A stretch of 63,893 nucleotides of DNA, the filler included, from Phoronis australis (lineage: Eukaryota > Animalia > Phoronida): the NCBI GenBank assembly GCA_002633005.1. It is 7 parts of 7 records of this genome, joined end to end, with 100 filler letters (N's around TTAATTAATTAA, not from the genome) between each part and the next. Parts side by side here need not be neighbours in the genome. Positions count along the whole stretch, not along the records: positions 1 to 25,699 come from NMRA01001145.1; 6 more parts are not named here. One strand, given 5' to 3'. The notes below the pieces were generated by a model. That model had not been told where the DNA came from. It worked only from the letters and a program-made list of their open reading frames with translations, and searched no databases. This document shows positions 3,271 through 53,830 of this stretch, piece by piece. A program made the position numbers and the translations under genes. Every line of letters begins with the position of its first letter. Within the stretch, counting starts at the first letter, position 1.

Positions 3271-5013
3271 CATGCTATGAACATTCCCACTAAATGAGAT
3301 TGGTTCTAACCCCAGTGGTTAAGGTAAACGGTGGGGTATGGAAAATTGAACTAGACTGTATTTATCCACCTTGGCTGAGTCGCGCTCGGCTCACGATCAA
3401 AGGGATGCCGCCAAGCTGCTCTAATCATCGAGTCACGAGCGAGGATAATTGGCTTCGCTCATGCGGATATGATCAGCTGATTACAATCTAGCTAGCAGAC
3501 TGTACTTTTTATGAAGAGAGTTTTACGTAGTTTTTACTGTAATATTTGAAAAGAGGAGCGAAAACAAATATGAGTACAACTTTGAATTTTTCAAATCGGC
3601 CCAGGATAAGAGATTTTGCAACACAGCAACACTCACGATTACTTTCATTCGGCGCGCACTAATACAAAAATATAGGACCCAAGTTATTTAGATTTTGGAA
3701 CACATGCATTGCAATATTCAAAATACTTTTATTATGAATCTTACAAGCTGTAAAACGACGTTGTTAATTTCATTGTGTTCATTCATTGTCATCCGTCAAA
3801 TCGGCAATTTCCGAGATGTGATCTGCGGCGTGCGCGTATGTGTACAAAACACGTGATTGTTATGTTCCTGAAGTACGAAAATTAAGAAGGCTTTAACATG
3901 CCGTTATTATTGACAGGGACACGATAAAACGAATTTGGATTTTGACTATAGTCTTGATACAGCGATCTGACTGACCACTGCGTCAGTGTCTCCGTTAGAC
4001 CCAGAAATTTCACACAGCCCGGGTAGTTCATTTCGTCCCCAACATGTAGATCGAACCTTGGACTATTAATACTCCACGGCAGAGCTAACGACAGTCGGCC
4101 TGTGCACACAAAATCTGTGAGCTAACCAGCACTCACCTTGCACGTTACAGCCGTTGAAGTGAAAAACAATCAAGTAAACGCCATTTTCTTGTATAATCCT
4201 CCGCCTTTTGTAAAAAAAAAGTCTATCGTCGATGACCCGCACACGCACGCTCACTCACTCTCATACGCAGATGACCTTCAAAACAAACGTCACGTGACAA
4301 CATGTGTGTTCATCCAGAGATTTTTCTCGTGTTGTGGAGTACGATGTAGCGCACATTTGGACTTAATCGCAATTAATCTAGACTCCACATGAACTTTAAA
4401 AATTGTAAAACATCAGGAAGATTTCAGGTAATTTGTTGAGTCGCAACTATATTTTTATTCAAGACTACAAGTTTTCCTATTGACGATCGCGATTCAGTGA
4501 CGCATCAGTCGGCAAGTTTTCGCATTGTGATGAGCACAATTTTTTGAAAAATTGTCGTAATTTAACAACGGAAGTTGATAGCAATGCACCACAATTTTGT
4601 AGAAAGGCTGTCATAGGCTACAAATATGTGACAGAGCGTAAATTTGATGAATCCTAGCTTCCGATTTTACCCGTTTGGGAAACCGGGTTTCAACTGCCGT
4701 AGGCTCACTACAATATGCGTCCCCTCCCCGTGAAATGAATTTTTCTAAGCTTTTGTTTCAGCCAATACAGTATAGAGCTTTCCACCAAGGCTAGGTGGTG
4801 CAACACATTATTCTTTGTTGCATTATAGTAGCTGGTCTTGGCTAATTATCATTTTATGGCCTGGTCATCCATTCAGCCAAAAGTAGTTCCAGAGGTGGCT
4901 TATCAGCCAATTATTCACGCATGCTGACTCACAATAGAAGCCTGATAAGAGTGAAGGTGGATAAATGTGGTGTTCCTACAGTTTCTTGTTTTAGTGGATG
5001 TGTTCACGACATG
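3271..5013 (+). mobile_element. Family A, full-length copy A4 (~1.74 kb, imperfect TIRs, CATG termini)
   Basis: Left end CATGCTATGAACATTCCCACTAA; right end TTAGTGGATGTGTTCACGACATG. Colinear with 14425-16158. Flanks GA/TA. No recognisable transposase. Confidence 0.85.
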
Positions 5014-6163
5014 TATGGCATACCAAAATAAATTTTATACTTGGCAATTATTTGGCCTAAGCTCTATTGGCTGACTGAGCAAAAGCCTTAGACATTTGGA
5101 TCTAAGTGTTCACCTGACAGAGGTCACTCATTGTCAGTCAAAATAAGTTGTATGCATGCTATACAAATATTAGTGTACAGTATAAGACCCATTCACTGAG
5201 GTGCCGGCACCAGGCAGCATTTTTAAAATTGATATGCAAAAAAGTAATATACCACTGACACTTGGTTAAAATAAAAGCAATTCTATCAATCTCTGCTGGT
5301 GATGCTAATTACAATTGTATTTGACAAGGGTATAGAATAGTTGATGAAAATGCAATGGGCTTCTTTGTGACCTACATCACATGGCAGAAGGATATTCACA
5401 AGAGAATTACTTAAGAAAAAAAGGTGAGATTTTGACATTATTAAAGAAGCGTATAAATCTGATCATGAAACCAATGTACTTATTAAAACCTTAAGCACAT
5501 ACTGGCAGCCTTAAAAACTCATGTCTGTGTTTAAAATGACAAATTATTCAGAATCTACTTTCACAGTTGCATTTGTGAATCTCATAGGTTGAGCTGTATA
5601 TAGCCATTATGATACACTTGGAAAACCTTTTTGTTAGCTAAAGATCAATCGGGACAGGGAGGCACAAGCCAACTGACTTGTGTGCTGAAAACAGAATCAG
5701 GCTCCATTTGTTATATCTTACTGTGAGGTTATTAACTATTTGTTGAAAATGAGTCTGACTGGCCTGAGGGAAATTCTAGGAAATAAGTGTTTATTTAGTC
5801 ACCAGGCAGTGTGAGCAGATTAAACACAGAAATACTGTTCCTTTCTTAAGTTTCTTCTGGTTCCTAAATTGTTGATCAAATGATTTAATACCACTGTGCC
5901 TTTCACCACAAACCTGCATGAGGGTCAGCCCTCTCAGCCAGTGACCACTTCCCTATCCCAGTTGCCAGCTGTCCCTCATGACAAAGCCGTCCTAACAATA
6001 GCCCTATAGTGAGCCAGCCAACCACACAAATCGCTTGTGCAGTATTACGTAAGCATTAACTAGGCCTTGGGCAGACACCAGAATAGAAGTTTCAGATATA
6101 ACTATTTATGCATGTGTTAAAAATTTTTGTGCTATATTGAAAATTATTGATCAAAATCGATTA

Positions 6164-8116: not shown

Positions 8117-8825
8117 ATCATAGGCGCAACAAAAACAAAACTGCCACTAGGAGGTGCCGCAGAAGTCGAAATCGTCGGAAAATCATCATCAACCGTCCTC
8201 TTTATAGTAAGCACATACATGCCAATTTTCACAATCATCCTTTGAGCGGTTTGGTTGATAGAGGGGTGGACGCAAAAAAACTCAAAAACAGTAAAAATGG
8301 CCACTAGGTGGTGCAAACTATGTCGAATCCATCCGAAAACGGGAGGATAGCGTCATCTCACTAATAGGTGCCTACATATTAAATTTCATGAAAATCCGAT
8401 AAGGACTTTTGAAGATACAAAGGTAAACGTAAAAAAAATAAAATTGCCACTAGGGGGCACACTGGTAGTCGGAACTGTCCAAAAGTCGTCGTCCTCCGTT
8501 GTTAACATCACATAAATATACTTACCAAATTTTGTAAAGATCCTGCGAACGGTTTAGGAGATACAGTCATAGGCGCAAAAAAACTGCCACTAGGAGGCGC
8601 CACAGCAGTCGAAATGTCGGAAAATCATCGTCAACCATCCTCTTCGTAGTAAGCACATACATGCCAATTTTCACAATCATCCTTTGAGCGGTTTGGTTGA
8701 TAGAGGGGTGGACACAAAAAACAGACTCATAAACAGTAAAAATGGCCACTAGGTTGCGCAAACTACGTCGAATCTATCCGAAAACAGGAGGATTGCGTCA
8801 TCTCACTAATAGGTGCCTACATACC
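8117..8825. repeat. Tandem array of ~140-158-bp monomers with a ~450-bp higher-order period
   Basis: GCCACTAGG recurs near 8143, 8300, 8446, 8586 and 8744. 8117-8377 is nearly repeated at 8567-8825. Ends at an N. Confidence 0.75.
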
Positions 8826-8826
8826 N

Positions 8827-11800
8827 ATCTAATTAATTGAAGAATGTTCTTGTGTAATCCCTGTTCCTATGGAGGAGAGCACCGCTTATATTGATTTTCA
8901 ATTGGATACAGTTCTGCGGCACCCCTAATGCCAATTTTGTTTGTTGCCTGTGCCTCGAGATTCACATAATTCTTGATGGATGTTCATGAGATTTTGTGCA
9001 TGTTCCTACAGAGTGGAGCATGGTTGTCATTGTTTTTAGTCCAGTCTGTTTTACTATGACACCTATGACAAACATGCGACTCATTTACCAAAACACCACT
9101 GTCTACATAGTGGGAAGGCAGGACGTAGCTGCTAAAAAGTTAATCTGTATGTCAGAATTTTTAGTCGACACTGACATCACTGGTATTTTTTAGCAAAATG
9201 TTTCCGCATACTGTTTTAAACACAACTGTATAGACTTCTATTTAAAGTCATTGAATAAAGAAATGGTTTATGCTCTGCCAATGAAACTTTCATTTTTAAC
9301 TGTACTATGCTATTAGATGGTATAGACATACCTACCACGTGGCACAGCAGTCAAATTTTTGGGAAATTTGTACTCCCAGTTTTAAAATCGTGTATAAGCC
9401 CTTCTTTGTGTGTAACCCAGCTACCAAATAATGTTCCTTGTAGTGTTATTTTATTTATAGACAAAACGCTGATTATAGTGATTGAAACAATTTTCGCAAC
9501 ACGTCTAGTGTGCTGTCCTGCTAAGTCATGCTCTTCCGATTTTATGGTAATACCGTAAATACCATAATGAGTATCTGTCAGCTTTAATTTAATCTGTGAA
9601 CTGTTAAAACTAGGTACACAATAATGCAAGTAGGCTGCGTTCTGAGTCAATTACCCACAAAAGTGCAGAATGACTAACCTTCTGCATACTTCACACTAGC
9701 TTGCCTTCAATTTGGACGATGATTTTCAGTTAAATTTAGCAAAAAGTAAAAAATGTTTTGCAAGGGTACACTTAAAAAACAGCATAACTAAGATGGCCAG
9801 TTTTATTTTCATTTCAAAACATACCAAGAAACGATTAGCACTCAAGCGGCAAGCCTTAATTGTTTCAGGGAGGTTTTTGCTCTCAAAAAAATACAGCCGA
9901 AATTTTGTGGGAATACTTTTGTCTTGTACTGTACTTTTAAGTGCTTATAATGTACGATTATGAGCCACTATTGGTACTTTCAGGATACTTATTTTGAATA
10001 ACCACACGTTAAGACAGCGTTAGTTTATTAAATTTGGGTGTTGTGATTCCGGTTAAAAGTTTTCAGAAGATTTTCATGCATCACTTTGATAAATGATCAA
10101 CCTCTCTTAAGATAGTGTATTTTTTGTTTCAGATTTAAAAAAGAAAAATACTGTTTTGGAACTAAAAAAGAAAACTACAAGTGGCTATGGGTCTCAGGAG
10201 GAGATTCCAATTAAAGGTTTGTATTAAAACTTTTACCAGAACGGTAATACGGATCTTGCATGGGAGGAATATAGACAATTCTGTTCATATGGGTGCCTGC
10301 ACTTGTCATCACTAGACATTACCAACAATGTTACAAGCTGTGCTGAAAAATTGTTGTAATTCATCAGGAAAAGGTAGAAATTTCAACTTTGGCTCGATAT
10401 CACATTGTTTTAATGAAAGCAATCCCACTTCCTAATGACATAATTACAGAACAATGGATATCGAGTACGTTTTCAAAAAACAAAGAGGTTTCCACTAGAG
10501 AACTGCTTTTCCTTCACCATATGACATTTAGCTTCATAACAGTTATTCTTAATAGAAATGATAAAAAACAAAGATTGTTTTATTTCAGCTTAGCAAACAG
10601 TCACACTCCTGAATGTTACAATAATTACAATAAAAACTTTCAATTCTGACAAAAGTTCTTGCTAATATTTATACTTTTATGCGCCCACATACGAACACTA
10701 TGAGAGTGCACAAACTTACAATCACCTCGGTCTATGGACATAAGGCAAGTGCAGCCAGCTCGCCTAAACCCTCGCAAGAACTTCATGGAATTTAGTGGAT
10801 GTGTTCCTACCAAGCTAATGACGGAGTATGACAACAATAACACGACCCGACTATTGCTCTTCCTCTAGTACCAATTTCATTTTCGTGTTTGTCCCAGTGT
10901 GTAACGACATTCCCTGATAGCTTTGAAAGAAATCTGAAACAAAGATGACACCTTCCCAGTTTTGCATGTATTCAACAGATTCCGCATCTTCTACACGGGA
11001 TTTTTTATTATTTCAATTCGTTTTTTGCGTCCAGCTCTTCACCTGCCAAACTGATCAAATCCTTGATATAAAATAAGGCAGATGTCCTGTTCAATATTTA
11101 GGCTTAGTCAGCAACTGTCCAACTTAACACAGCCTAACATAGGGTTTACTGTCCTGGCTGAGAATTGTTTTATGAGTTTGGATTAGATAAATAAGCTCAG
11201 AATGTTGGACACTGAGCACAGCTTACATTTACTTTGAGATGGGTCTGCCTACCATTGCCCCCTTGCTGAACTTTTGTTTCATGTTTCTACCAGGATATCT
11301 ATAAATTTAATTAATTGATGAATGTTCTTGTGTAATCCTTGTTCCTATGGAGGAGAGCACCGCTTATATTGATTTTCAATTGGATACAGTTCTGCAGCAC
11401 CCCCTAATGCCAATTTTGTTTGTTGCCTGTACCTCAAGATTCACATAATTCTTGATGGATGTTCATGAGATTTGGTGCATGTTCCTACAGAGTGGAGCAT
11501 GGTTGTCATTGTTTTTAGTCCAGTCTGTTTTTACTACTATGACACCTATGACAAACATGTGACTCATTTACCAAAACACCACTGTCTACATAGTGGGAAG
11601 GCAGGACGTAGCTGCTAAAAAGTTAATCTGTATGTCAGAATTTTTAGTCAACACTGACATCACTGGTATTTTTTAGCAAAATGTTTCCACATACTGTTTT
11701 AAACACAAAGGTATAGACTTCCATTTAAAGTGATTGAATAAAGAAATGGTTTATGCTCCGCCAACGAAACTTTCATTTTTAACTGTACTATGCTATTAGA

Positions 11801-12191
11801 TGGGTAGACATACCTACCACGTGGCACAGCAGTACCAGTAGANAGTCGACACTGACATCACTGGTATTTTTTAGCAAAATGTTTCCGCATACTGTTTTAA
11901 ACACAACTGTATAGACTTCCATTTAAAGTCATTGAATAAAGAAATGGTTTATGCTCTGCCAATGAAACTTTCATTTTTAACTGTACTATGCTATTAGATG
12001 GTATAGACATACCTACCACGTGGCACAGCAGTACCAGTAGACTACTAGTGCCTGGCAAGAGCAAGGTGTGTTCTGTCAAATTTTTGGGAAATTTGTACTC
12101 CCAGTTTTAAAATCGTGTATAAGCCCTTCTTTGTGTGTAACCCAGCTAGCAAATAAAGTTCCTTGTAAAGTGTTATTTTATTTATAGACAA
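8827..12191. repeat. Tandemly duplicated ~2.48-kb unit X (full copy 8827-~11304; partial copies ~11305-11842 and 11844-12191)
   Basis: 8827-9350 recurs at ~11305-11830, and 9163-9462 recurs at 11844-12191. A further copy lies at 13488-14329 plus 22147-22864. Confidence 0.8.
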
Positions 12192-13487
12192 TACGGTAAT
12201 TTTTCAAAAAATTGTGCTCTTCACAAGGCGAAAACTTGCCGACTGATGCGTCGCTGAATCGCCATTGTCAATAGGAAAACTTGAACTCTTGAATAAAAAT
12301 ATAGTTTCGACTCAACAAATTACCTGAAATCTTCCTTATGTTCTACAATTTTTAAAGTTCATGTGGAGACCAGATTAATTGCGATTAAGTCCAAATCTGC
12401 GCTACATCGTACCTCACAACACGAGAAAAATCTCTGGATGAACGTACATGTTGTTGTCACGTGAAGTTTGTTTTGAAGTTCGTCTGCGTATGAGAGTGAG
12501 TGAGCGTGAGTGTGCGGGTCATCGACGACAGACTTTTTTGTTACAAAAGGCGGAGGATTATGCAAGAAAATGGCGTTTACTAGATTGTTTTTCACTTAAA
12601 CGGCTGCAACATGCAAGGTGAGTGCTGGTTAGCTCCCAGATTTTGTGTGCACAGGCCGACTGTCGTTAGCTCTGGCGTGGAGTATTAATAGTCCAAGGCT
12701 CTATCTACATGTTGGGGACGAGGTGAACTACCCGGGCTGTGTGAAATTTCTGGGTATAACGGAGACACTGACGCAGTGGTCAGCCAGTTCGCTGTATCAA
12801 GACTATAGTCAAAATCCAAATTCGTTTTATCGTGTTCATGTCAATAATAACGGCATGCTAAAGCTTTCTTAATTTTCGTACTTCAGGAACATAACAATCA
12901 TGTGTTTTGTACACATACGTGCACGCCGCAGATCACATCTCGGAAATTGCCGATTTGACGGATGACAATGAATGAGCACAATGAAATTAACAACGTCGTT
13001 TTACAGCTTGTAAGATTCATAACAAACGTACGTATTTTGAATATTGCAATGCATGTGTTCCAAAATCTAAATAACTTGGGTCCTATATTTTTGTATTAGT
13101 GCGCGCCGAATGAAAGTAATCGTGAGTGTTGCTGTGTTGCAAAATCTCTTATCCTGGGCCGATTTGAAAAATTCAAAGTTGTACTCATATTTGTTTTCGC
13201 TCCTCTTTTCAAATATTACAGTAAAAACTACGTAAAACTTTAGCCATAAAAAGTACAGTCTGCTAGCTAGATTGTAATCAGCTGATCATATCCGCATGAG
13301 CGAAGCCAATTATCCTCGCTCGTGACTCGATGACTGGAGCAGCTTTCCGGCATCCCTCTGATCGTGAGCCGAGTGCGACTCAGCCAAGGTGGATAAATAC
13401 GGTCGAGTTCAATTTTCCATACCCCACCGTTTACCTTAACCACTGAGGTTAGGACCAATCTTATTTAGTGGGAATGTTCATAGCATG
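12192..13487 (-). mobile_element. Family A, copy A5 (truncated at one end)
   Basis: Reverse complement of ~3271-4560. Intact ...GTTCATAGCATG terminus at 13487. The other end is fused to unit X, consistent with a deletion between tandem units. Confidence 0.85.
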
Positions 13488-14329
13488 AAAGAAATGGTTT
13501 ATGCTCTGCCAATGAAACTTTCATTTTTAACTGTACTATGCTATTAGATGGGTAGACATACCTACCACGTGGCACAGCAGTACCAGTAGACTACTAGTGC
13601 CTGGCAAGAGCAAGGTGTGTTCTGTCAAATTTTTGGGAAATTTGTACTCCCAGTTTTAAAATCGTGTATAAGCCCTTCTTTGTGTGTAACCCAGCTAGCA
13701 AATATTGTTCCTTGTAAAGTGTTATTTTATTTATAGACAATATGCTGATTATAGTGATTGACACAATTTTCGCAACACGTCTAGTCTGCTGTCCTGCTAA
13801 GTCATGCTCTTCCGATTTTATGGTAATACCGTAAATACCATAATGAGTATCTGTCAGCTTTAATTTAATCTGTGAACTGTTAAAACTAGGTAAACAATAA
13901 TGCAAGTAGGCTGCGTTCTGAGTCAATTACCCACAAAAGTGCAGAATGACTAACCTTCTGCATACTTCACACTAGCCTGCCTTCAATTTGGACGATGATT
14001 TTCAGTTAAATTTAGCAAAAAGTAAAAAATGTTTTGCAAGGGTACACTTAAAAAACAGCATTACTAAGATGGCCAGTTTTATTTTCATTTGAAAATATAC
14101 CAAGAAACGATTAGCACTCAAGCGGCAAGCCTTAATTGTTTCAGGGAGGTTTTGCTCACAACAAAATACAGCCGAAATTTTGTGGGAATACTTTTGTCTT
14201 GTACTGTACTTTTAAGTGCTTATAATGTACGATTATGAGCCACTATTGGTACTTTCATGATTCTTATTTTGAATAACCACACGTTAAGACAGCGTTACAA
14301 ATAATTTAAACCCACAGCACTAAGGCCAA

Positions 14330-16523
14330 TATTGCTGCTCAAACGTTGATGCAATAGAGAAAGTGGCGTCTACAACTCGATATACTTTATTACGTTCATC
14401 GTTTATCGTTGATACATCGTATTGCATGCTATGAACAGTCCCACTAAATAAGATTGGTCCTAACCCCGGTCGTCAAGGTAAACGGTGGGGTATGGAAAAA
14501 TGAACTAGATCGTATTTATCCACCTTGGCTGAGTCGCGCTCGGCTCACGATCAAAGGGATGCCGCCAAGCTGCTTTATTCATCGAGTCACGAGCAAGGAT
14601 AATTGGCTTCGCTCATGCACATATGATCAGCTGATTACAATCTATCTAGCAGACTGTACTTTTTATGGAGAGAGTTACAAGTAGTTTTTTTGTAATATTT
14701 GAAAAGAGGAGCGAAAACAAATATGAGTACAACTTTGAATTTTTCAAATCGGCCCAGGATAAGGGATTTTGCAACACAGCAACACTCACGATTACTTTCA
14801 TTCGGCGCGCACGAATACAAAAATATAGGAACTCAAGTTATTTAGATTTTGGAACACATGCATTGCAATATTCAAAATACGTTTATTATGAATCTTACAA
14901 GCTGTAAAACGACGTTGTTTAATTTCATTGTGCTCATTCATGGTCATCCGTCAAGTCGGCAATTTCCGAGATGTGATCTGCAGCGTTCGCGTATGTGTAC
15001 AAAACACGTGATTGTTATGTTCCTGAAGTACGAAAATTAAGAAACTTTAGCATGCCGTTATTATTGACAGGGACACGATAAAACGAATTTGGATTTTGAC
15101 TATAGTCTTGATACAGGGAGCTTGCTGACTACTGCGTCAGTGTCTCTGTTAGACCCAGAAATTTCACACAGCCCGGGTAGTCATGTAGATCGAGTCTTCG
15201 ACTATTAATACTCCATGGTAGAGCTAACGACCGTCGGCCTGTGCACACAAAATCTGTGAGTTAACCAGCACTCACCTTGCACGTTGCAGCCGTTTAAATG
15301 AAAAAACAATCCAGTAAACGCCATTTTCCTGCACAATCCTCCGCCTTTTGTAACAAAAAAGTCTATCGTCGATGACCCACACACGCACGCTCCGGCACTC
15401 ACTCTCATACGCAGAAAAACTTCAAAACAAAGGTCACGTGACAACAACATGTGTGTTCATCCAGAGATTTTTCTCGTGTTGTGGGGTATGATGTAGCGCA
15501 GATTTGCACGTAATCGCAATTAATCTGGACTCCACATGAACTTTAAAAATTGTAGAACATAAGGAAGATTTCAGGTAATTTGTTGAGTCGAAACTATATT
15601 TTTATTCAAGAGTTCAAGTTTTCCTATTGACGATGGCGATTCAGCGGCGACGCATCATTCGGCAAGTTTTCGCCCTGTGATGAGCAGAATTTTTTGAAAA
15701 ATTATCGTAATTTAACAACGGATGTTCATAGCAATGTACAACAATTTTGTAGAAAGACTGTCACAGGTTAAGAATACGTCACAGAGCGTAAATTTTATGA
15801 ATCCTAGCTTTCGATTTTACCCGTTTGGGAAACCGGCTTTCAACTGCCGTAGGCTACAGTAAGAATCCCCTCCCCGTGAAATGAATTTTTCTAAGCGTTT
15901 ATTAGAGCCAATACAGTATACAGCTTTCCACCAAGGCTAGGTGATGCTACGATATTATTCTTTGTTGCATTAGTAACTGGTCTTGGCTAATTATCATTTT
16001 ATGGCCTGGTCATCCATTCAGCCAAAAGTAGTTCTAGAGGTGGCTTATCAGCCAATTATTCACGCATGCTGACTCACAATAGAAGCCTGATAAGAGTGAA
16101 GGTGGATAAATGGGGTGTTCCTACAATTTCTTGTGTTAGTGGATGTGTTCACCACATGTGCATCGGTGTTCATATCGGTTATCTGACGTTGAACGATAAC
16201 CAAATGTATACTTTCAGCGTTTGCCTCAAACACAGTCTGGTAATCAACACACGACACATATGACAATCCACGAGAGAAAGGCAACTGGTGCTTGTTTGGA
16301 CATTTAAATACTCCGCGAAAACCTCAAAAGCTGATTGGCCCAGACAGTATCTCAACTTACACAACCAATGGAAATAATACCTCCGAAAGGGGGGTTGCTT
16401 AAATCATGTCTTAACCTTGAGACAACGTCCTAAAAATATAACTGAGGCACTAGGTGATTGAGAATGCCATCTCTAGGAAAATTAGGAAACTATATATATA
16501 TATATGTATTGCCTGCATTAACA
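14330..16523 (-). repeat. 3' LTR of the BEL element (14330-14424 plus 16161-16523), split by family A copy A6
   Basis: The two parts join to match 21689-22146. Begins TGTTAATGC on the minus strand next to the PPT. Confidence 0.9.
14425..16158 (+). mobile_element. Family A, full-length copy A6 with 2-bp TSD (TG)
   Basis: ATTG|CATGCTATGAAC...GTTCACCACATG|TGCATCGG, against the uninterrupted ATTGCATCGG in the other LTR (~21780). Confidence 0.9.
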
Positions 16524-16533
16524 CTCCCCCCGG

Positions 16534-19500
16534 AAGCAGAAATGCTTAACTCCACCAACTGAGAACCACAAAGTCTACATGAAAGAACTGGTATAAAGAC
16601 AGTTCGTAGACTCTAGATGAAGCGCCCTGCACGACATATCTGTAAAATAACACCGTATCGCTTAAGGGTTTTTCTACCGTCTTTCACTGTGAACAGTCCA
16701 AAATAGTCGATACCTACGTACTTGAAAGGTCAAGCTCTATGGTAGTTCTGACTTCAGGGAAATAGGCCATCTTCTGTTGCAAAGTTGGACTGTGAAGGTG
16801 TCGACATCTCACACATCTGCCAATGACGGAACGTACAGTTGCATTTCCGGCAATTACCCAGTACTTCTGGCGAACAGCCGACATGACATGAATGCGTTCA
16901 GCGTGTTGTATCAGTTCATGATAACTTCGGATGATAAGCGTAGTGATGCGACTCTTGTGAGGCAGCAAAATAGGGTGTCTCTCGTTGAACGCAGTTCTTG
17001 CCTTTCTCAGACGCCCACCAACCCTGATAAGGTCGTCACCAACTAGAAACGTATCCAAGCTGAAAATCGAGCTCTTGCGCGATACACCAGACTTCACTGT
17101 TGACTGAGTGGAGTCTCGTTGCTTCCTTAGTACCTCAACTTCCGGACCAAAATGCTTGCGCTGTACGTGACGGATAACTTCAACTTTGGCAGCTTGAATT
17201 TCTGCTAATGTTATCAAGCTGCGTAGACTCTTTTTTCTGGCTCGTTTTCGCAGGAATGACTTCAGTCGGAGAAGGTAAACAGCTCTGCATAGGCGATACC
17301 AACTAGAATAATGGGAGATAAGGGCGTTTAGCGGATCCATGTCGTCACCTGTATCTTCACCATCAGCGGAGACTGCTGCGACAGTAGCTGTAAAATCAGA
17401 ATCATGAGAAAAATCATGCAAAATAGTTGATTTAACTGGCCAATCGCTCTCGGCTTTCCACAGAAACTCTGGACCGTCTAGCCATAGCATCTGGTTGAAG
17501 AAACTCTGAGTAGTAACACCTCTTGAACCATCGTCGGCTGTATTGCAACTGGTGTCGGCGTACCTCCACTGGTCAGGCTCCGTTAGAAGTCACGAATCTG
17601 TTGCACCCGGTTTGCTATAAAGATAGGAAATCGTTTGGTCTCATTACGTATAAAATTCAACACAGCTGTGGAATCTGTGTGGTATGTAACAGTATCAGGT
17701 ATCTGTAGCTCTCTTAGCACAATGCGACTAAGACGAATGGAGACAGTGGCCGCCGTAAGCTCCAGTCGGGGAACAGTCCCAGTCCTTTTCTGAGGTGCAA
17801 CCCTTGCCTTGCCCATGAGGAACTTGCAGTGAATCTGGCCCTCGCTGTTGCACAAACGCAGATAAGCGGCCGATGCATAACCAACGGTGCTGGCATCAGA
17901 GAAGAGATGAAGCTGACATGGTGAGACTTTACCAAACAAGACAGGCTTCAAACAACGTCTAACAGTCACATTCTGGAGTGCAGATATATCATAGAGCCAT
18001 TTTTGCCAGAGAATACTTTACTCACCTGGAACCTTGTCGTCCCAGTCTACAGAAATGGACTTGCATAAATCTTGTAGCAGTTTCTTCGCCGGCAGGATAA
18101 GGGGAGCAAAAAATCCAAGGGGGTCAAAAATAGACGAAATTGTAGACAAAATGCCTCTGCGTGTTGCTGGTTTGGAAGTCAAAGTGACAGAAAACTGGAA
18201 ATCGTCCGACGTGATGTTCCACTGGATTCCCAAAGCTCGTTCAATGTGGATGTTGTCGTCATCAAAAGTAATTGCCTGCCCAACAGTCGATCTATCTTCT
18301 GGAGGTACTGAACGTATAACCGCAGCACAGTTACTGAGAAACTTAGTCAATCAGAATCCATCCAAAGAGCACGCATGTCGTAGCTCCTGAACCAATTCTA
18401 TGGCATCTTCTTCCTTCTCTACAGACGTCAGACAGTCGGCAATGTAGAAATTGTGCTGGATGGTCTCGTTGACACGTTGCGACACAGTGTTGTCTTGGGG
18501 AATCCATTTCAGAACATAATTACAAACACTGGGCGAAGAAAAATCCCCAAAGATGTGCACTGTCATCTGATATTCCCTCAGATCGCCGTTTAAATCCCCA
18601 TTAGGCCACCACATGAAGCGCAGAAAGTCACACTGTTCTTCTGGTATCCTAACTTGGTGGAACATTACTTCTACGTCACCTACGATCACCACAGGTTCCT
18701 CACGAAATCTTAGCAGCACACCGACAAGAGAGTTGACAAAATCCGGTCCTTGCAGTAGACTATCATTCAAAGAGACACCTTCATATCTAGCGCTGCAGTC
18801 AAAAACTACTCTTATCTTTTCTGGCTTTCTAGGGTGGTATATCCCATGATGAGGCAGATACCAAACACGTCCTGGCACAGCAGATAACTTGTGACCAGGG
18901 ACTTCTTTGGCGTGACCTTTGTCAAACAGGGAAAGCATTAACTTGACGTAGTCTTGATGATACCGGTCGGATCGCAACATCTTCATTCGCTGCCACAGTG
19001 CTCTCCGCATGGCCTGTACCCTGTTATTTGGCATGGTGGGGTTGCGCTCACGAAAGGCCAGTGGAACCACATAATGACCATCTTGCTTGTGAATTCCCTC
19101 CCCTACTATGTCCGTAAACCGTTTGTCCTCCATTGACAGGCCGTATTCGTCGGAATGAAGTCCTTTAGAATCATTGAAATCTCGCTCAAGCTACTGGAGA
19201 ATCTTGTCGTAATCGTGTTTGCCTGTTTTATCACTGGTGACGCCCAAATCCTTGACTGCAACCTGATTGCACAAAACTGGATCGTTGCTCTCAACTGAAG
19301 CTTTGGTCGGTCCGTTCACGGTGCATCCATGATGTAATCGAACACCAAATGGTCCCTGGTCGCTCGCTGGAAAGACATCAAGTGGTTCCAAAGCTCTTGG
19401 ACAATCACTGCCAATTAACATACCAATGTCAAGGTCCGGTAGAAACTCGGGAATACGATTAGCCAAATTCACTAGACTCACCGATTTTCGTAAACTCTCA

Positions 19501-21673
19501 GGTCTCGGGACGTGGCGGTGACTTACTGGTATTTCATGACGTGAGTATGCCTTGAGTAACAGGACAGCGTTTTGACCTTCCCAGTCCATCACAGTAAGAC
19601 CACTGACAATCTGTGACTCAACATAGGAGGTTCCATGCATGGTGTTGAGACGAAGCTTTGTAGGTATAGATTAGGAGCACTTAGTTGTTCCAGCAGTCGA
19701 TCAGACACAAAGCAGGCAGTACTCCCTTGGTCGTAGAACGCGTAAGTATCCACAGTCACACTGGAAGATTCGTGGCGAACTCTTACTGGAAGAATAGCTT
19801 GAAGAACTTTGTTTATTTCAGTTGACATACAACAATGACCCTTACCATTGATCTCACCTACACTGGAGTTCTTCACATCAGTCTGCTGACTCTCGCTACC
19901 GCTGTATTTCGATACAAACTGATCGTCGTGCAGACAGGTGGGGTGACGTCTTGAACACTTGCTGCATACTCTCTTCTTCAAGCACCCCTTAGAAGTATGG
20001 TTTCTTACCAAACAGCCTTAACACAAATGCTTGTCTTTAATAAAGGCTTTGCGTTCACTTACGGGCTTACCTAGAAAAAACTAACATTTGTCAATATCAT
20101 GTTGTTGTTTACAAAACAAACACAAAGGTCTAGAATCACTCTTGTCCTGGAATTACCTGATGTCGGTAGAGAAGTTCTGTATACGTCGATTAGTCGTGGA
20201 ATTCGCCCTCAGATAGGGGGTTTCTCTGCCACTGCTTCTATTCCAAACACTGGATCACTGGCAGCTTGCTGAGCCCGATGAACGAAGTCGACCATGTCCG
20301 GAAACGTTGTGACAATGGATACAGACTTCAGTTGAACAACCTTGTCTCTCCACTTATTTTGCAGATATGCTGGCAACTTGCGCATCACAGTCTGTAGGTT
20401 GGAAGGGTGATTAAGCACCTCCAAAGACGAAATACCAAACATAGCGTGGACACTTCTGAAGAAAATGAGTTAGTTGTCGGAAACCCACGACGTCATCACC
20501 TTTGACTGCAGGCCATTGTCTCAGCTTGTTCATGTAGGCGTTGGAAATCTTATACTGATCACCATATTCTGTGTCTAAAAGCTTCCTAGCCGTAATGTAA
20601 CCCTGGTCTGGTGGCATGTACACGCACCCGACGATAAGGTCCTTGGGCTCACCTACAAGATGTTGGTCCAGATTGTACAGAAGGTCGGAGCTTCCTGCAA
20701 CTCTCGACGCCACCCGTGCGTCAAAGGCCATGGTGAACGCGGTATAGCTAAGTATGTCCCCACTGAATTTTGGTACCTCAATCATTGGTAATGACACTTA
20801 GCTTGCAAACCGTTGATAAGCGTCCAGCACGCAGTTGGCACCTGCAGAAGCTGGCATGAAGACATGAGCGTGACAGTTCAATGGACTTCCATGTATGCTT
20901 CCTTCTGGAACAACACAGTTGGCTGGGATGGCTGACTTGCTGGTCTTAATGCCTGGTTCAGATGTAGGGGTGGAAACAGGTGGCAGCCGAATCTTCTATT
21001 GGCACAGCATTTTTCAAATCAGGTGCATGTAACTTCTCAACACCCAAATTCTTGGCAATGACACCGACCGCAGTACCTGAGACAGAAACAGGAGGTAAAA
21101 CGTCGCATTCAGAAGAAAGCTCACACTTTGAAATCGGTATAGAATGTGACTTTGGTAGCATTTGGCTTCAAAGGGGTATGAACTACCAATGACAGCATGG
21201 GTAACATAGCCTTCATGACATTACTGGAATCATGTTCATCACACAAAGATTCGTGAGCCTCAGCAATTGACAGTTCTGTTTTTAGTTTAAGCTCTTGCTC
21301 ACGTACCTCTAACAGAAGCTGTTCTTCCTCAGTCTCTTGATCCAACCAACGCTTTTCATTCTCAAGTCTCTGTGTCAAATGAAGCTTTTTCTGTTTCAGA
21401 GCAAGTTCTTCTTTAAGTGCCTTTTGTCGCGCCAGGATTTTAGCTTTTTTCAATTTCCATTTCGTAGATTTCGTCGATGACCCACCACTGCTCACACTAG
21501 ACCAGTGCTGGCACAGCACTGGACGCGCCGTCGTCGTTTACGCCGTTGATGTCACCCTCTGTTGGCTGACTCTCCTCTTTACTAACGCCCTCTGGAGGAT
21601 GACTCTCACTGTGGAATTGTCAAGTTGGTTTTTCGTCGATAACTAGAGCTATGGTAGTCTCTGTCGATTCCAT
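16534..21673 (-). pseudogene. BEL/Pao gag-pol polyprotein remnant (stops, frameshifts, integrase core deleted)
   Basis: Gag LPMIEVPKFSGDILSYTAF and Cys/His knuckles (CSKCSRRHPTCLH); protease YAFYDQGS; RT YLPHHGIYHPRKPEKIRVVFDCSA and LLQGPDFVNSLVGVLLRFR; RNase H LHLFSDASTVGY and VPRLELTAA; integrase Zn finger H...H...CVRC. Confidence 0.93.
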
Positions 21674-21688
21674 GGCACTCTATAACAA

Positions 21689-22146
21689 TATTGCTGCTCA
21701 AACGTTGATGCAATAGAGAAAGAGGCGTCTACAACTCGATATACTTTATTACGTTCATCGTTTATCGTTGATACATCGTATTGCATCGGTGTTCATATCA
21801 GTTATCTGACGTTGAACGATAACCAAATGCATACTTACAGCGTTTGCCTCAAAAACAGTCTGGTAATAATCAACACACGATACATATGACAATCCACGAG
21901 AGAAAGGCAACTGGTGCTTTTTCGGACGTTTAAATACTCCGCGAAAACCTAAAAAGCTGATTGGCCCAGACAGTATCTCAACTTACACAACCAATGGAAA
22001 TAATACCTCCGAAAGGGGGGGGGTTGCTTAAATCATGACTTAACCCCAAGACAACGCCCTAAAAATATAACTGAGGCACTAGGGGATTGAGAACACCATC
22101 TCTAGGAAAATTGGGAAACTATATATATGCACTGCCTGCATTAACA
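21689..22146 (-). repeat. 5' LTR of the BEL element (458 bp)
   Basis: Direct repeat of the reassembled 3' LTR; ends ...GCCTGCATTAACA on the plus strand. Confidence 0.9.
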
Positions 22147-22864
22147 GACAATTTTCTTTTCAGAAGATTTTCATGCATCACTTTGATAAATGACCGACCT
22201 CTCTTAAGATAGTGTATTTTTTGTTTCAGGCCTAAAAAAGAAAAATGCTGTAGACCTAAAAAAGAAAAATACAAGTGGCTATGGGTCTCAGGAGGAGATT
22301 CCAATTGGAGGTTTGTATTAAAACTAATACCAGAACGGTACTACGGATCTTGCATGGGAGGAATATAGACAATTCTGTTCATATGGGTGCATGCACTTGT
22401 CATCACTAGATATTACCAACAATGTTACAAGCTGTGCTGAAAAATTGTTGTAATTCATCAGGAAAAGGTAGAAATTTCAACTTTGGCTCTATATCACATT
22501 GTTTTAATGAAAGCAATCCCACTTCCTAATGACATAATTACAGAACAATGGATATCGAGCACGTTTTCAAAAAACAAAGAGGTTTTCACTAGAGAACTGC
22601 TTTTCCTTCACCACATGATATTTAGCTTCATGACAGTTATTCTTAATAGAAATGATAAAAACCAAAGATTGTTTTATTTCAGCTTAGCAAACAGTCACAC
22701 TTCTGAATGTTACAATAATTACAATAAAAACTTTCAACTCTGACAAAAGTGTTCGCTAATATTTATACTTTTATGCCCCCACATACGAACACTATGAGAG
22801 TGCACAAACTTACAATCACCTCGGTCTATGGACATAAGGCAAGTGCAGCCAGCTCGCCTAAACC

Positions 22865-24090
22865 TTGGGACCAGTGTTAGCTAATATTTTCATGTGCAAT
22901 CTCGAGACTGAGGCTCTGGCTTAAGTTGTCCACCGGATTGTAAACCACAATTTTATCTAAGGTATGTGGATGATACATTTGTTGTGTTTTCATCCAAGAG
23001 CTCAGTCAACACCTTTTTTAATCACATGAACAATATGCTTCAGTACATCAACTTCACCATTGAATCTGAGCGCGAGTCGTGTTTACCTTTTCTAGATGTC
23101 TTGGTTAAACATGATAATAGCACCGTTGTTACATCTGTGTATTGCAAGCCCAGTTTTTCTGGGCTTTATCTTAAATTTGATAGTTTTGTGTCTATACAGT
23201 ACAAGAGAGGTCTAGTCAATTGCTTGTTTCACGGTGCCTGGAGAATCTGCTCCACCAATTTAAATTTTGATAGTGACGTAGCTACGATTTTCCAGTTATT
23301 GCGTTCTAATGGTTACCCTCTGAATTTTCTGAATAGCTGTAAATGGCACTTTCTTTCAAAAACGAATGAGGCAGATAAGATAGCAGTTATTGGACCCGAG
23401 AAAAAGAAAGTTTTCTTTTCTTTTGGTTACACCGGGCCAAGTAGTATAAAATTGAAACGCCAATTATCTCGCCTTATTCATTGCATAGACCCAGCAGTTG
23501 AACTGATAGTTGTTTCCAAACCCCTTCGGAAACTTTCCAATATGCTGTGTAAACTGAAGTCACTCATCCCTTTATTGAACAAGAGCAATGTTGTGTATGA
23601 GGTTGAATGTGACAAATGTAAGGAATTCTATATAGGACTCACACAGAGACGCCTCTGTGGCAGGTTGAAAGAACATCACACCTCAGAGAAAAGTAACATA
23701 TATAGGCATTGTATTAGCTACAATCACCAAGCCAACTCTGTTAGTATTATCTGCAGAGAACCTATTAAGGAGTTACTGTACATTAAAGAGTCATTGGCCA
23801 TTCAGAACCAGCATGCCACTGATTCTCTGAATAACATGCAGAGCTCTGTGACCCTGCAGCTATGGTGATGACCAGCTACAGACCATATTCTATGTATCTC
23901 TCACTTCACTCTATGGATGTTACCTGAGCTGTATGTTGGCACTTGCTGTCCTAAAATATTGTAAATATGATCCTGATGATGCCTAATGAAAAGACGAAAT
24001 ATTGAATTGAACATGAACTTTTTTATTTGTGCGGCGATCGTCCGGTTTTTGATCTTATTGTGGCCAAAAACTGATTTAATTCTCAATATC
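22865..24090 (+). mobile_element. Penelope-like retroelement, 5'-truncated (RT C-terminal half plus GIY-YIG endonuclease; frameshifted)
   Basis: LGPVLANIFM then, after a frameshift, FYLRYVDDTF; LPFLDVLV; TSVYCKP; NGYP; VVYEVECDKCKEFYIGLTQRRL..RLKEH. ORF stop at 23868. Interrupts unit X at 22864. The 3' boundary is approximate. Confidence 0.9.
23970..24006 (+). ncRNA. Minimal type I hammerhead ribozyme-like motif in the Penelope 3' region (degenerate)
   Basis: CTGATGA-T-GCCT..AGAC-GAAA-TATT: both core boxes are present, stem II has one mismatch, and stem III is palindromic. Confidence 0.6.
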
Positions 24091-25699: not shown

Positions 25700-25799
25700 N
25701 NNNNNNNNNNNNNNNNNNNNNNNNNNNNNNNNNNNNNNNNNNNTTAATTAATTAANNNNNNNNNNNNNNNNNNNNNNNNNNNNNNNNNNNNNNNNNNNN
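25700..25799. other. Artificial 100-nt contig spacer N44-TTAATTAATTAA-N44 (also 43565-43664, 46738-46837, 50878-50977, 57346-57445, 60614-60713)
   Basis: Identical length and six-frame-stop core at six positions. Confidence 0.95.
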
Positions 25800-37300: not shown

Positions 37301-39815
37301 CCCCTGTAACTGTGAAAGAGCAAGAGTGAAAAGTAAAAATATCAAAGAAAAATAATTGTACCAAATGAACCCAAAGTTGCACCTAATGACCCCAAAATTG
37401 GTGTAAGAATTTCCTTTACGAATGAAAAGTATATACGCAATTATGTAAGCTCTAGCTCTAAACTCACTAGCACTTAATGACTCGGTTCCCTTTATTCGAT
37501 TTAAATATCAAGTGCATTTCAGGTGCACTTCTCTAGTATCTTCTTGTTATCAAAATTCGGAGAGTCTATTTAAGAAAATGTAGAAGAAGAAGCAATTTGA
37601 CAGAATGCATTCTTTGACCCGTTTCGGGTCATTCTTGTGCATTTTGAGTCAAAATCCAAGTGATCAATAGAATTAGATTGCCAACTGCTTGACCCACCAT
37701 GAATATGACCCCTCTCGATAATGAATAACATAAGAAACAGCAGATTGAAACTTGAAAGAAAAGTGCACTTGATGACCCCAAAGTTGCACCTAATGACCCC
37801 AAAGTTTGTGATTGAACTTCCTTTGTGACTGGAAGCCACATGTATAAATATGAAAGACCTAGCTCAAAAACCACTTTTGCACTTAATGACCTTTGACCCG
37901 GAAACTCAGTTCCCTTGGTCAGATTGGAAACACTTGTAAATTTCTGATGCACATCTTTAGTCCCTACTTGTTAACAAAGTTCAAAGAGTCTATATAAAAA
38001 CCTGTAGAAGAAGAAGCATTTTGATGGAATGCACTCCTTGACCTGTTTCATGTCATTCCGGTGCGGTTTGATTAAAAAATATAATCAATAAAACTCCCTT
38101 GATCATCGTATCAAACACAGTGAATAAGGTTGTTGCACATGTAAGTGAATCAGTGTAAGAGTAATTACAATATGAAAAGGAAGGAAGAAGAAGAATAAGA
38201 ACTAGAATGCAATTGCGTATGCGCACTTACAACTCTGCGCGGGGTGTATGCACATGTATAGTGAAGTATAGGTGCATTACATTGCATAAAAATTGCATCC
38301 TTTGTGTGTTAGAGAGCAATGTCCCTGGTAACTAGGAAAGATCAAAACTGAAAATAAGAATATCAACGGAAAACTGCCCAAAATGACCCCACAATTGCAC
38401 CTATTGACCCTAAAGGTTGTGACTGAATTTTCTTTACGAATGAAAGGTATATAGTTGATTATGGAAGCTCCAGTTCAAAAATCACTTTTGCACTCAATGT
38501 CTTTTGACCCGGAAACTCGGTTCCCTTTATCCGATTTAAATTTCAAGTAAATTTTGGGTGCGATTCTCTAGTACATGTATCTACTTGTTTTCAAAATTCG
38601 GAGAGTCTATCTAAAAACCGGTGGAGAAAAAGCAATTTGACAGAATGCACTATATGACCCGTTTCTTGTCATTTCGGTGAATTTTGAGTCAAATCCAAAT
38701 GATAAGTAGAATTAGATTGCAAAATGGTTGAACCACCATGAATATGAACCCTCTCGATAATGAATAATGTAAGAACGAGCAGAATGAAAAAATCTGAAAT
38801 TTAAGAGAAAAGGGCACTTAATGACCATAAAAGTGCACCCAATGACCCCAAAGTTTTGTGACAGATCTTCTTTTGTGAATGGTAATCATATGCATGATTA
38901 TGAAAGGTCTAGCTCAACAATCACTTTTGCACTTAATGACCTTTGACCCAGAAACTCGGTTCCCTTTATCCGATTTAAATTTCACGTAAATTTTGGGTGC
39001 AATTATCTAGTATTTGCTTGGTTTCAAAATTCGGAGAATCTATCTAAAAACCTGTAGAAGAATAAGCAATTTGACAGAATACACTGTTTAAACCGAATCG
39101 AGTCATTCCGATCAATTTTGAGTCAAATTCAAGTGATAAGCAGAATTAGATTGTCAATTGGTTGAACCACCATGAATACGAACCCTCACGATAATGAAAA
39201 ATGTAAGAACGACCAGATTGAAAAGGTCTGAAATTTAAGAGAAAAGTGCACCTAATGACGCCAAATTGGAAGAGTCTATCTAAAAACCTGTAGAAGAAGA
39301 AGCATTCTGTAAAAATGCACTACTTAACCCGTTTCGGGTCAATCCGATGCATTTTGGGTCAAACCATTATAATCAGAATAAACAATGATGAACCTATGAA
39401 CCACAAAGAATATGAATGTTGTTAGCGAATCGAAGTAAAAGTACTAACAATCTGAAAAGGGATGAACAATAATAATAATAAGAGGAAGAAGAATAATAAG
39501 AAGATAAAATACGTAGAACAGTAGAACTCTGCGCTGCATGCGCAGGGTAATAATAAGAATAAGAATAAGAATAAGAATAAGAATAAGAAGTTAAATTACG
39601 TAGAGCAGTAAAACTCTGCTCTTGAACGCGCAGAGTAATAAGAAGATAGAATACGTAGAACAGTAAAACTCTGCGCTTGTACGCGTAGCTTAATAAGAAG
39701 ATAAAATACGTAGAACAGTAAAACTCTGCGCTGCACGCGCAGAGTAGTAAGAATAAAAATATGAAGATAAGATACGTAGAACAGCAAAACTCTACGCTTG
39801 CACGCCTAGAGTAAT
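34400..39815. repeat. Complex array of Helentron/HINE-like units: ~410-440-bp internal tandem repeats, (AAG/AAT)n tracts and tandem 55-60-bp hairpin units
   Basis: AATGACCTTTGACCCGGAAA and TGCACCTAATGACCCC recur. Unit heads GCAATTGCGTATGCGCACTTACAACTC lie near 35695, 37190 and 38208. Hairpin ACTCTGCGC-TGCAC-GCGCAGAGT is repeated at 35490-35690 and 39500-39815. Confidence 0.7.
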
Positions 39816-40544
39816 AATCCAGTTCCTTTGAGAGACATGAAATGTTGCTGAAACCCATTCTCAATATTTAAAACAGCCGCAATACTTAAGCAATCAACTT
39901 TCAAATGTGGAGTCATAAACTCACTATATATAATTGATTTGTGATAATTCATGGCACTAGCTTGTTTGAGCGGCAAAATAAAAAAAAACTGCAGAAACTA
40001 CTACTTTCAGATTTTTGTAATGAAGAGATCAGGTGGAAAACAAGTATATTCCTTGCTACTGTCTAGTAATTCAAAAACGTATTAAGATTTCAAGATATCA
40101 CCCCACTGTACCATTCAACGCGTCATGAGAATATCAGGAAATCTTTACCTTCTCTGATGAAACAAACATGTACATTGTATTGGTGATATTAGGAATTAAC
40201 AGTGTCGAGGAATGTTGTCCCAATGTCACCAGTAAACAGTCACGAGAAATTAAATTTGTCTCTGGCTGATGTGTTTCTTGTACAGGTGTAGATCAGGGTA
40301 GAGATCAGTAACGCAAGAAACTCGTTAAGACTTCGCTAAAGAGCAAGACTTAGCGAGTATACGCGAGGCTTTGCCGTGCGTTTTATAGAAAGCCCGCGAT
40401 TTTGACTAGATTTTCTAGCAGTGAAACAACCACTGAGCTCTAAGAGGTTATTAATACGAATCATTGAATGTTAATACGATGAAATGGTTGCTAAGACATC
40501 ATCAGCGTTTGCTGTGGCCGAGTTTATTATTTTTGTTTTATCAG

Positions 40545-41633
40545 GGGTCAACAACCAAATCAACAATGATGAGTGTGAAGACGGACCTTGCCTACACGGT
40601 GCCACCTGCAGGAATCTGGTGAATGGCTATGTCTGTACGTGCGCCGCGGGCTGGAGAGGGAGGAACTGTAGTGAGAATGTTAATGAGTGCAAGGAGAATT
40701 TTCCATGTCAGAATGGTGCAACGTGCACTGATCAGATGGGGGGCTATCAATGTGCGTGTTTAACCAGCGTCGACTCACAAGGTAAAGTTTTTGCTGGGAG
40801 AAACTGCAGCGTCGAGCTGACAGGTTGCTATGGCACTAGCAATCGGTGTGAGAACAATGCCACCTGCCAACCATTCCTCAAGACCGATGGTGTGACTCAG
40901 GCAGGCTTTTGCAAGTGTCTACCAGGGTATACGGGGGATACCTGCAGCGACGGCACCACGGTGTCCATGAACGGTTACTCTCATATTATGCTGAATCCTG
41001 TTGCCTCGTTCTGGCGCATGACTTCGGTTGAACTGAGTTTCAAGACAACAGTGGACAATGGAGTCTTGTTCCACCATGACATTGATTTTTACCTGATTGA
41101 GATATTCCAGTCGAAACTTATAGTTGCCTACATGAGAAGCGACTTAGGCAAGAATTTGACTTTTGACCGCGCGGTGAATGACGGGCAGTGGCATACAGTA
41201 TCCTTATCGTTCATACGGCAATATCATTTCGACGTTTTGCGTGCGAGTTTGGACGGCGAAGGCAGCGAAAGTATAACACAGAACTGGTATACGGATTATC
41301 GCCGGTCCATGTTAACCTGGAAGCATAGGTTCTCTTACACTATGATCGGAGCAGTGAGTGACTGGTGCAGAAGCTGTTCACAGTCGCAGCGCAATTTCAC
41401 TGGCTGTCTACGAGATTTCACAATTACGTTCAACATGTTTCCTTCCTTGGATTTAAAACGCACAATGCAATTAAAATCCACTCACAACCACACAGTGAAC
41501 GTGACGGAAGGCTGCCCTAGGGTCATGCAGTGCACTCCCGACTCCTGCAGTGGGCAAGGTTTGTGCCATGATGTTTGGATTGATTACCATTGTGCCTGTC
41601 AACTCCCGTATTATGGGAAATCATGCCAGTATG
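40545..41633 (+). CDS. 1089-bp exon encoding 3 EGF-like repeats, laminin G and EGF; Crumbs-like
   Basis: TTTTATCAG acceptor, G|GTGAGT donor, phase 1-1, fully open. Ca-binding EGFs (NDEC, NVNEC); GRNCSVELTGC...CENNATCQP...CLPGYTG..C..TTVS as before Crumbs LamG1; LSFKTTVDNGVLF, VNDGQWHTV and FTGCLRD. Confidence 0.9.
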
Positions 41634-41699
41634 GTGAGTGTGAAGCACTCATTTGCCTGACATTTAGTAACTGAAACTTGAGATTGATATATTAAGAGC

Positions 41700-46400: not shown

Positions 46401-46861
46401 TCTCATCCAATATACTTTCGGCAAAGTCCATGTCATGTCACGAGCTCACTTCCATGTGTAATGGCAGAAATGGGTCCAGAAATTTGCTGGAGACTCATGG
46501 AATGATGGATGCACGCAATAATTATCCTCATTCACTTGTGTGCAAACAGTGTGAGTGTACAAGTTACCTAATGTTCTTTCGTTAAATTCTGTGAAGGTTA
46601 ATGCAACTGGTTACCGTCATACTGCTTACGTCACACCCCAAGCAAATTGTAATATTTGCTTGGGGTGTGACGTTTTGAACTAGGAAAATACTAGAAAAAA
46701 CATTCAATTGCAGGTGGTCTTTATCTTTTCTTAAACGNNNNNNNNNNNNNNNNNNNNNNNNNNNNNNNNNNNNNNNNNNNNTTAATTAATTAANNNNNNN
46801 NNNNNNNNNNNNNNNNNNNNNNNNNNNNNNNNNNNNNTGGGATATCCTAGATCCGCCACTG

Positions 46862-53806: not shown

Positions 53807-53830
53807 GTAAGCCGAAGCGACAACAGTTAA

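What the first reader, a model, noticed from the sequence alone, without database searches (positions are those of the whole stretch)
10023..10059. 37-nt segment is the base-by-base COMPLEMENT (not reverse complement) of its paralogous copy
Seen in sequence: between shared flanks (..AAGACAGCGTTA | TTTTCAGAAGA..), copy X1 reads GTTTATTAAATTTGGGTGTTGTGATTCCGGTTAAAAG. The paralog reads CAAATAATTTAAACCCACAGCACTAAGGCCAA (14298-14329) plus TTTTC (22152-22156) once the BEL element and one TSD are removed. Read in the same direction, 36 of 37 positions are complementary. A true inversion would give GAAAATTGGCC..., which is not what is present. The paralog carries the BEL TSD, so that version existed in vivo. 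Established: antiparallel templated synthesis cannot complement without reversing. Inference: most likely a software error (complement without reverse in gap filling, or colour-space decoding). If real, it would be an unknown mutational mechanism.
Basis: partly seen in the sequence, partly recalled or inferred. Interest (0 to 1): 0.85.

Follow-up and report, generated by a model that had tools for sequence, protein, structure and literature searches.

The report
Complement-only block is an assembly error
A 37-base stretch of this animal genome assembly is the letter-by-letter complement of the DNA that public sequencing runs of the same organism read at that place, so it is most likely a software slip in assembly (a patch reversed but not complemented) and not a new kind of mutation.

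Summary
Window 10023-10059 is the complement, not the reverse complement, of 14298-14329 plus 22152-22156 (36 of 37 bases; chance about 3e-20). Reads decide between the two readings. All 5 runs found (4 samples, 2 studies) carry only the ordinary version. X1-X4 each have one contig across the site. In X5, 12-13 raw reads run straight through 14298-14329, and 11 continue into the shared right flank. The commonest real allele has A at 14317, which makes the window block its exact complement, 37 of 37. No laid record carries the window's block. It is therefore an assembly artefact, about 98% likely. The likeliest route (inferred) is a gap patch at the BEL insertion site that was reversed but not complemented when a scaffold was flipped, for example lower-case letters missed by a case-sensitive routine. 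Colour-space decoding is a minor rival. The two 'paralogs' are probably two haplotypes of one locus. Caveat: no run is shown to come from the assembled individual.

The parts
10023..10059 (+). 37-base block written as the complement of the real sequence (equivalently, the real minus strand written backwards); assembly artefact
9475..10022 (+). left flank of copy X1, 98% identical to 13750-14297
10060..10770 (+). right flank of copy X1, 96% identical to 22157-22864
14298..14329 (+). first 32 bases of the correctly written version in the second copy, ending in the BEL target site GCCAA (14325-14329); read by all runs laid here; 14317 is polymorphic (A in 8 of 12 X5 reads and in the X1, X3 and X4 contigs)
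14330..22146 (-). decayed BEL/Pao LTR retrotransposon inserted inside the 37-base site (LTRs 14330-16523, with a nested 1.7-kb repeat, and 21689-22146; Peptidase_A17 above cut-off; RVT_1, Integrase_H2C2 and DUF1759 below cut-off); described only
22147..22156 (+). second target-site copy (GACAA, 22147-22151) and the last 5 bases of the correctly written version (22152-22156)
8826..8826 (.). single-N scaffold join at the left end of the piece that holds the block
11843..11843 (.). single-N scaffold join; the sequence after it is 99.4% identical to 9163 onward, against 95.5% to 11646 onward, as expected if it starts the second haplotype of the same locus

Best explanation
The block is the exact complement of the DNA that every sequencing run laid here reads at this site, and it is most likely an assembly-software error in which a short patch was reversed without being complemented (or complemented without being reversed) when its scaffold was flipped. 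Shown: the real empty-site sequence, its exact complementarity to the block, the sharp edges, and the absence of the block from all laid records. Inferred: the assembled animal carried a BEL insertion at this site on one haplotype only, which branches the assembly graph and leaves a small gap. A gap filler closed it with the 37-base empty allele, probably in lower case. A later scaffolding step then flipped the piece with a routine that complements only capitals. Reversing the true minus strand without complementing it gives precisely the complement of the true plus strand between correct flanks. An artefact of any kind is about 0.98 likely; this strand-handling class about 0.88; the lower-case sub-route about 0.6.
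For:: the X1, X2 and X3 contigs (one each; depth 23.6, 27.7, 12.7) cross 10023-10059, and all of their depth shows the other letters. X5 depth falls from about 6 to 2 over the block, and both remaining reads differ (the cleaner has 27 other differences); the listed differences rebuild the complement of the block at 37 of 37., the direct test: X5 depth is 12-13 through 14292-14326; 11 reads leave at 14330 into the shared right flank with agreement 1.0; X1, X3 and X4 each give one contig with 2 differences over 14215-14330 and the same continuation; 14317 reads A in 8 of 12 reads and in all three contigs. A perfect complement of the present-day allele carries no accumulated mutation; a toy random string flipped with a capitals-only table gives correct flanks and a complemented middle. 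The block contains the BEL target site, a natural break in the assembly graph; the window is a heavily re-scaffolded draft (3 single-N joins and 6 artificial 100-base gaps carrying a 12-base linker), so pieces were joined, and presumably oriented, by scripts.
Against: No run is shown to be the assembled individual. X1-X4 hold only about half of the sampled words, and their alleles differ from both window copies. Logan contigs drop rare variants, and only about 4% of X5 was read. Letter case is lost in the window, so the lower-case step cannot be seen. No second complement-only block was found among in-window repeats, so the route rests on one case. I found no paper documenting this exact bug; that some gap fillers write lower case is seen only in passages on MaSuRCA's chromosome_scaffolder (PMC9668749) and is otherwise recalled.
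Confidence: 0.88

Rival explanations
1. Colour-space (SOLiD) decoding artefact: two colour errors of the same class switch the decoded letters to their complements and back again.
For:: in colour space the window and the true sequence differ at exactly 2 colours (at 10022 and 10059), both by the complementing operation. PMC3268249 (passages read) states that one colour mismatch corrupts every downstream base.
Against: Every complement-only block has this two-colour property, so it is not specific. The route needs two matched errors to reach a consensus. It predicts the two sister exchanges equally often; none of 7 or more bases was found (weak, one event only). Nothing shows that SOLiD data were used.
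Confidence: 0.06
2. Some other processing slip: hand editing, or a polishing or haplotype-merging step that applied a minus-strand variant record with the wrong orientation.
For: It gives the same letters. The two copies look like unmerged haplotypes, and the linker gaps show custom scripting.
Against: It cannot be told apart from the best explanation with these data and needs extra steps.
Confidence: 0.045
3. A real, private mutation in the assembled animal, made by parallel-strand copying or by systematic A<->T + C<->G exchange ('swinger' polymerisation) over 37 bases at a site of repair.
For: Not excluded directly, because the assembled individual's reads were not identified. The claims exist in print. 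PMC4942731 (passages) calls the 16S gene of the Kamimuria wangi mitogenome a swinger A<->T + C<->G segment embedded in regular DNA. PMC4304224 (first half of the text) claims that Taq extends a parallel-annealed primer in vitro.
Against: 0 of 5 runs carry the block. The block is a perfect complement of today's common allele, with sharp edges, no microhomology, no indel and no length change. The window holds no inverted or mirror template for it (best matches 20 of 32 and 22 of 37). Established polymerase chemistry copies antiparallel. The Kamimuria genome was built from cloned Sanger fragments with desktop software (PMC3900512, passages), where the same slip is easy to make (my inference).
Confidence: 0.015

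Closest known systems
'Swinger' A<->T + C<->G segments embedded in regular DNA (Seligmann; e.g. 16S rDNA of the Kamimuria wangi mitogenome; PMC4942731 and PMC7027195, passages read)
   Same: The same transformation, with abrupt switches to and from regular sequence inside a deposited genome sequence.
   Different: Those papers read it as polymerase behaviour. Here raw reads and contigs of the same organism were laid on the site and show only the regular sequence. The block is 37 bases, nuclear and not coding.
Strand-handling errors in scaffolding and gap filling (lower-case patches; reverse without complement)
   Same: They give correct flanks around a complemented patch (toy test). Lower-case gap fill is described for MaSuRCA's chromosome_scaffolder (PMC9668749, passages).
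   Different: The tool and the step are not identified here. I found no paper on this exact bug.
Short inversions and template-switch events (established knowledge)
   Same: A short replaced segment between intact flanks.
   Different: They give the reverse complement or a direct copy. Here the reverse complement matches only 15 of 37.
SOLiD colour-space decoding shifts (PMC3268249, passages)
   Same: Two colour changes produce a complemented block.
   Different: No sign of SOLiD data, and no sister exchanges were found.

Membership tests
Assembly artefact (sequence not in the organism's DNA) | Independent reads or contigs across the site lack the assembled letters | tested here: met
   0 of 5 runs carry the block; all carry its complement
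Assembly artefact (sequence not in the organism's DNA) | Reads of the assembled individual itself lack the block | not testable with these tools
   no run is shown to be that individual; both read-laying runs used
Reverse-without-complement scaffolding error | Block equals the exact complement of the true sequence, same length, sharp edges, correct flanks | tested here: met
Reverse-without-complement scaffolding error | Block was a lower-case or gap-filled patch in an earlier assembly stage | not testable with these tools
Reverse-without-complement scaffolding error | Other blocks of the same kind, and only of this kind, in flipped scaffolds | tested here: inconclusive
   none further among in-window repeats; composition test has no power at 37 bases
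True inversion | Segment is the reverse complement of the homologue | tested here: not met
   15 of 37
Colour-space decoding error | Differs from truth by two colours of one class | tested here: met
   (true of any complement-only block)
Colour-space decoding error | SOLiD data in the assembly; sister exchanges equally common | tested here: inconclusive
   no sister exchange of 7 or more bases; assembly method unknown
Biological 'swinger' or parallel-synthesis DNA | Transformed sequence present in raw DNA reads | tested here: not met
Paralogous duplication (the two window copies) | Two distinct copies in each individual | tested here: inconclusive
   one contig per sample in X1-X4; X5 reads split 8:4 at 14317; alleles mix the SNPs of both copies, which favours one locus with two haplotypes; single-copy depth was not measured

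The most novel reading that the evidence does not exclude
The assembled animal really carried a private 37-base segment copied in parallel orientation (complemented but not reversed) at an empty retrotransposon target site. That would be the first read-testable case of non-antiparallel templated DNA synthesis in a genome.
Probability: 0.015. Interest if true: 0.95.

Novelty: not a real feature. Interest (0 to 1): 0.08.

Why it matters
Biologically it is very likely nothing. Technically it is a clean example of a silent assembly error: same length and same G+C as the truth, no N and no frame change, so ordinary contiguity and composition checks would miss it. It gives a simple diagnostic: look for complement-only blocks between homologous flanks. 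It is also a read-checked case of the pattern published as 'swinger' A<->T + C<->G DNA, and it shows that this pattern in a deposited sequence can be absent from the organism's reads. If the block were real, it would overturn the rule that templated synthesis is antiparallel.

Tried and rejected
No whole genome is held, so no genome-wide scan for more blocks was possible. A metagenome scan for the shared left flank found 0 matches. A second candidate, a 10-base complement match at 37510-37519 vs 38981-38990, lies 3 bases off the true register of the tandem repeat, where the copies align normally; rejected as chance. A Markov test (orders 1-4) of as-written against complemented sequence has no power at 37 bases: the block falls at the 21st-58th percentile, so it could not be used to find other blocks. 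A search for an inverted or mirror template in the window found none. Paper searches: the gap linker with scaffold and gap gave 21 papers, by their listing mostly bacterial genomics, none opened. 'Reversed but not complemented' gave 10 holders, 4 listed, on designed control sequences by their abstracts. 'Complemented but not reversed' gave 0. The lower-case and bug searches gave 4 papers each; two were checked by passage and describe no such bug. The colour-space plus swinger search gave nothing linking the two (listing only). Five look-ups in earlier scan findings gave nothing relevant. Supplements were not consulted.

Full report
Observation. The window's 10023-10059 was compared with 14298-14329 plus 22152-22156, the two sides of a BEL insertion with one target-site copy left out. 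It is complementary base by base in the same direction at 36 of 37 positions; direct identity is 0/37 and reverse-complement identity 15/37. The 20-21 flanking bases on each side are identical. The wider flanks align at 98% and 96%. Chance is about 3e-20. A complement-only BLAST of the whole window returns this pair as the best hit outside simple repeats. An anchored scan finds no other credible block under this exchange or the two sister exchanges.

Setting. The window looks animal (inferred from BEL/Pao domains, a weak GIY-YIG hit and an EGF-laminin G exon). It comes from a fragmented, re-scaffolded draft: three single-N joins, six 100-base gaps made of 44 N, a 12-base linker and 44 N, and two other gaps. 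The block lies in a 3-kb piece between single-N joins at 8826 and 11843. The sequence after 11843 is 99.4% identical to 9163 onward but only 95.5% to the 197 bases just before the join. No whole genome was available.

Read test. Five runs of the same organism were offered: X1-X4 as contigs from three samples of one study, and X5 as raw Hi-C reads from another study, found by species label. Laid on 9813-10262 (X5, X1, X2, X3), X1, X2 and X3 each have one contig across the block (depth 23.6, 27.7, 12.7), and the whole depth shows other letters at 10023-10059. X5 depth falls from about 6 to 2 over the block, and both remaining reads differ from it. The differences listed for the block (23 substitutions, 2 deletions and 1 two-base insertion, among 40 of 81 rows shown) rebuild the complement of the window block at 37 of 37. 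The direct test laid X5, X4, X1 and X3 on the second copy, 14215-14424. X5 depth is 12-13 straight through 14292-14326, and 11 reads leave at 14330 into the shared right flank with agreement 1.0. X1, X3 and X4 each give one contig that does the same. Position 14317 reads A in 8 of 12 X5 reads and in all three contigs, which removes the single mismatch. So 5 of 5 runs (4 samples, 2 studies) carry the ordinary sequence at an empty BEL site, none carries the window's block, and the block is the exact complement of the common allele. Limits: none of the runs is shown to be the assembled individual, contigs drop rare variants, and about 4% of X5 was read.

Paralogs or haplotypes. Each contig set has one contig at the site, and the alleles mix the two window copies. 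X1, X3 and X4 have the X1-type base at 14262 and 14317 but the other copy's base at 9983. X5 has the second copy's base at 14262, and both bases at 14317. No laid contig crosses into the BEL element at this site, and at most 1 of 12 X5 reads could. The simplest reading (inferred) is one locus, with the assembled animal's two haplotypes, one empty and one BEL-filled, laid end to end. Single-copy depth was not measured, so true tandem paralogy is not excluded.

Mechanism. The complement of the true plus strand is the true minus strand written backwards. A scaffold that held the patch in lower case, flipped by a routine that complements capitals only, gives correct flanks and a complemented middle (toy test). 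The block contains the BEL target site, where a heterozygous 7.8-kb insertion would branch an assembly graph and leave a small gap for a filler to close. That explains why the error sits here (inference). The exact complementarity and sharp edges are shown; the gap fill, the lower case and the flip are inferred. Lower-case gap fill is described for one scaffolder (PMC9668749, passages) and recalled for others. Colour-space decoding would need two matched colour errors (PMC3268249, passages) and SOLiD data, for which there is no sign. A biological origin would need parallel templated synthesis, which is claimed in vitro in PMC4304224 (first half read) and as 'swinger' polymerisation in PMC4942731 and PMC7027195 (passages). 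It would also have to be private to one animal, error-free and scarless, while all reads show the ordinary sequence.

Comparison and novelty. The pattern is the one published as an A<->T + C<->G 'swinger' insert, for example the 16S gene of the Kamimuria wangi mitogenome, a genome assembled from cloned Sanger fragments (PMC3900512, passages). It fails the test that would make it a biological member of that class: presence in reads. It is not an inversion. I found no paper on the exact software bug, but these searches match exact words only and cover open-licence papers only. Earlier scan findings held nothing relevant.

Verdict. Not a real feature: artefact about 0.98, interest 0.08. Its value is as a quality-control signature and as a caution for 'swinger DNA' claims that rest on deposited sequences. 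The novel reading, a real parallel-copied segment in the assembled animal, keeps a probability of about 0.015.

Noticed in passing
window 25700-25799, 43565-43664, 46738-46837, 50878-50977, 57346-57445, 60614-60713: Six identical artificial 100-base gaps (44 N, a 12-base A/T linker with stop codons in all frames, 44 N). The linker is software-made and should not be read as a genomic repeat; the tool that writes it was not identified.
   Followed up: partly
window 8826, 11843 (also 33996): Single-N joins with near-duplicate sequence on either side (11646-11842 vs 11844-12041; 8118-8378 vs 8567-8823). Probably false tandem duplication of two haplotypes.
   Followed up: partly
window 14330-22146: Decayed BEL/Pao element on the minus strand. 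It has a 5-base target duplication with one mismatch and a purine tract inside the left LTR. One end reads ...CAATA on the minus strand rather than the usual ...CA (recalled norm), and reads from other insertion sites also start at 14330. There is no TGG-type primer site next to the right LTR and no match of 8 or more bases to the LTR itself. The insertion at this site is not seen in X1, X3 or X4, nor in 11 of 12 X5 reads.
   Followed up: partly
window 14425-16159, 3271-5014, 12192-13490, 1-1354: A roughly 1.7-kb repeat with no long ORF, present in several copies in both orientations at about 89-96% identity; one copy is nested in the BEL LTR. Likely a non-autonomous DNA transposon.
   Followed up: no
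window 9902-9937: A 35-base stretch with about 40-80 times the local depth in contigs and about 10 times in raw reads, with unrelated flanks in those records: a short, very high-copy genomic motif.
   Followed up: no
window 10140-10216: Contigs of X1 and X3 show a joint from 10216 back to 10140, and depth there reaches 200-440: a tandem unit of about 80 bases that is amplified in other individuals or elsewhere in the genome but single in the window.
   Followed up: no
window 22912-23868: 318-codon open frame with a weak GIY-YIG hit (E 3e-4, just under the cut-off) starting right where the two copies diverge (22864); possibly a Penelope-like insertion in the second haplotype.
   Followed up: no
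window 40475-41674, 53059-53874, 62848-63468: Open frames with EGF plus laminin G, glycosyl hydrolase family 20, and zf-RVT domains.
   Followed up: no
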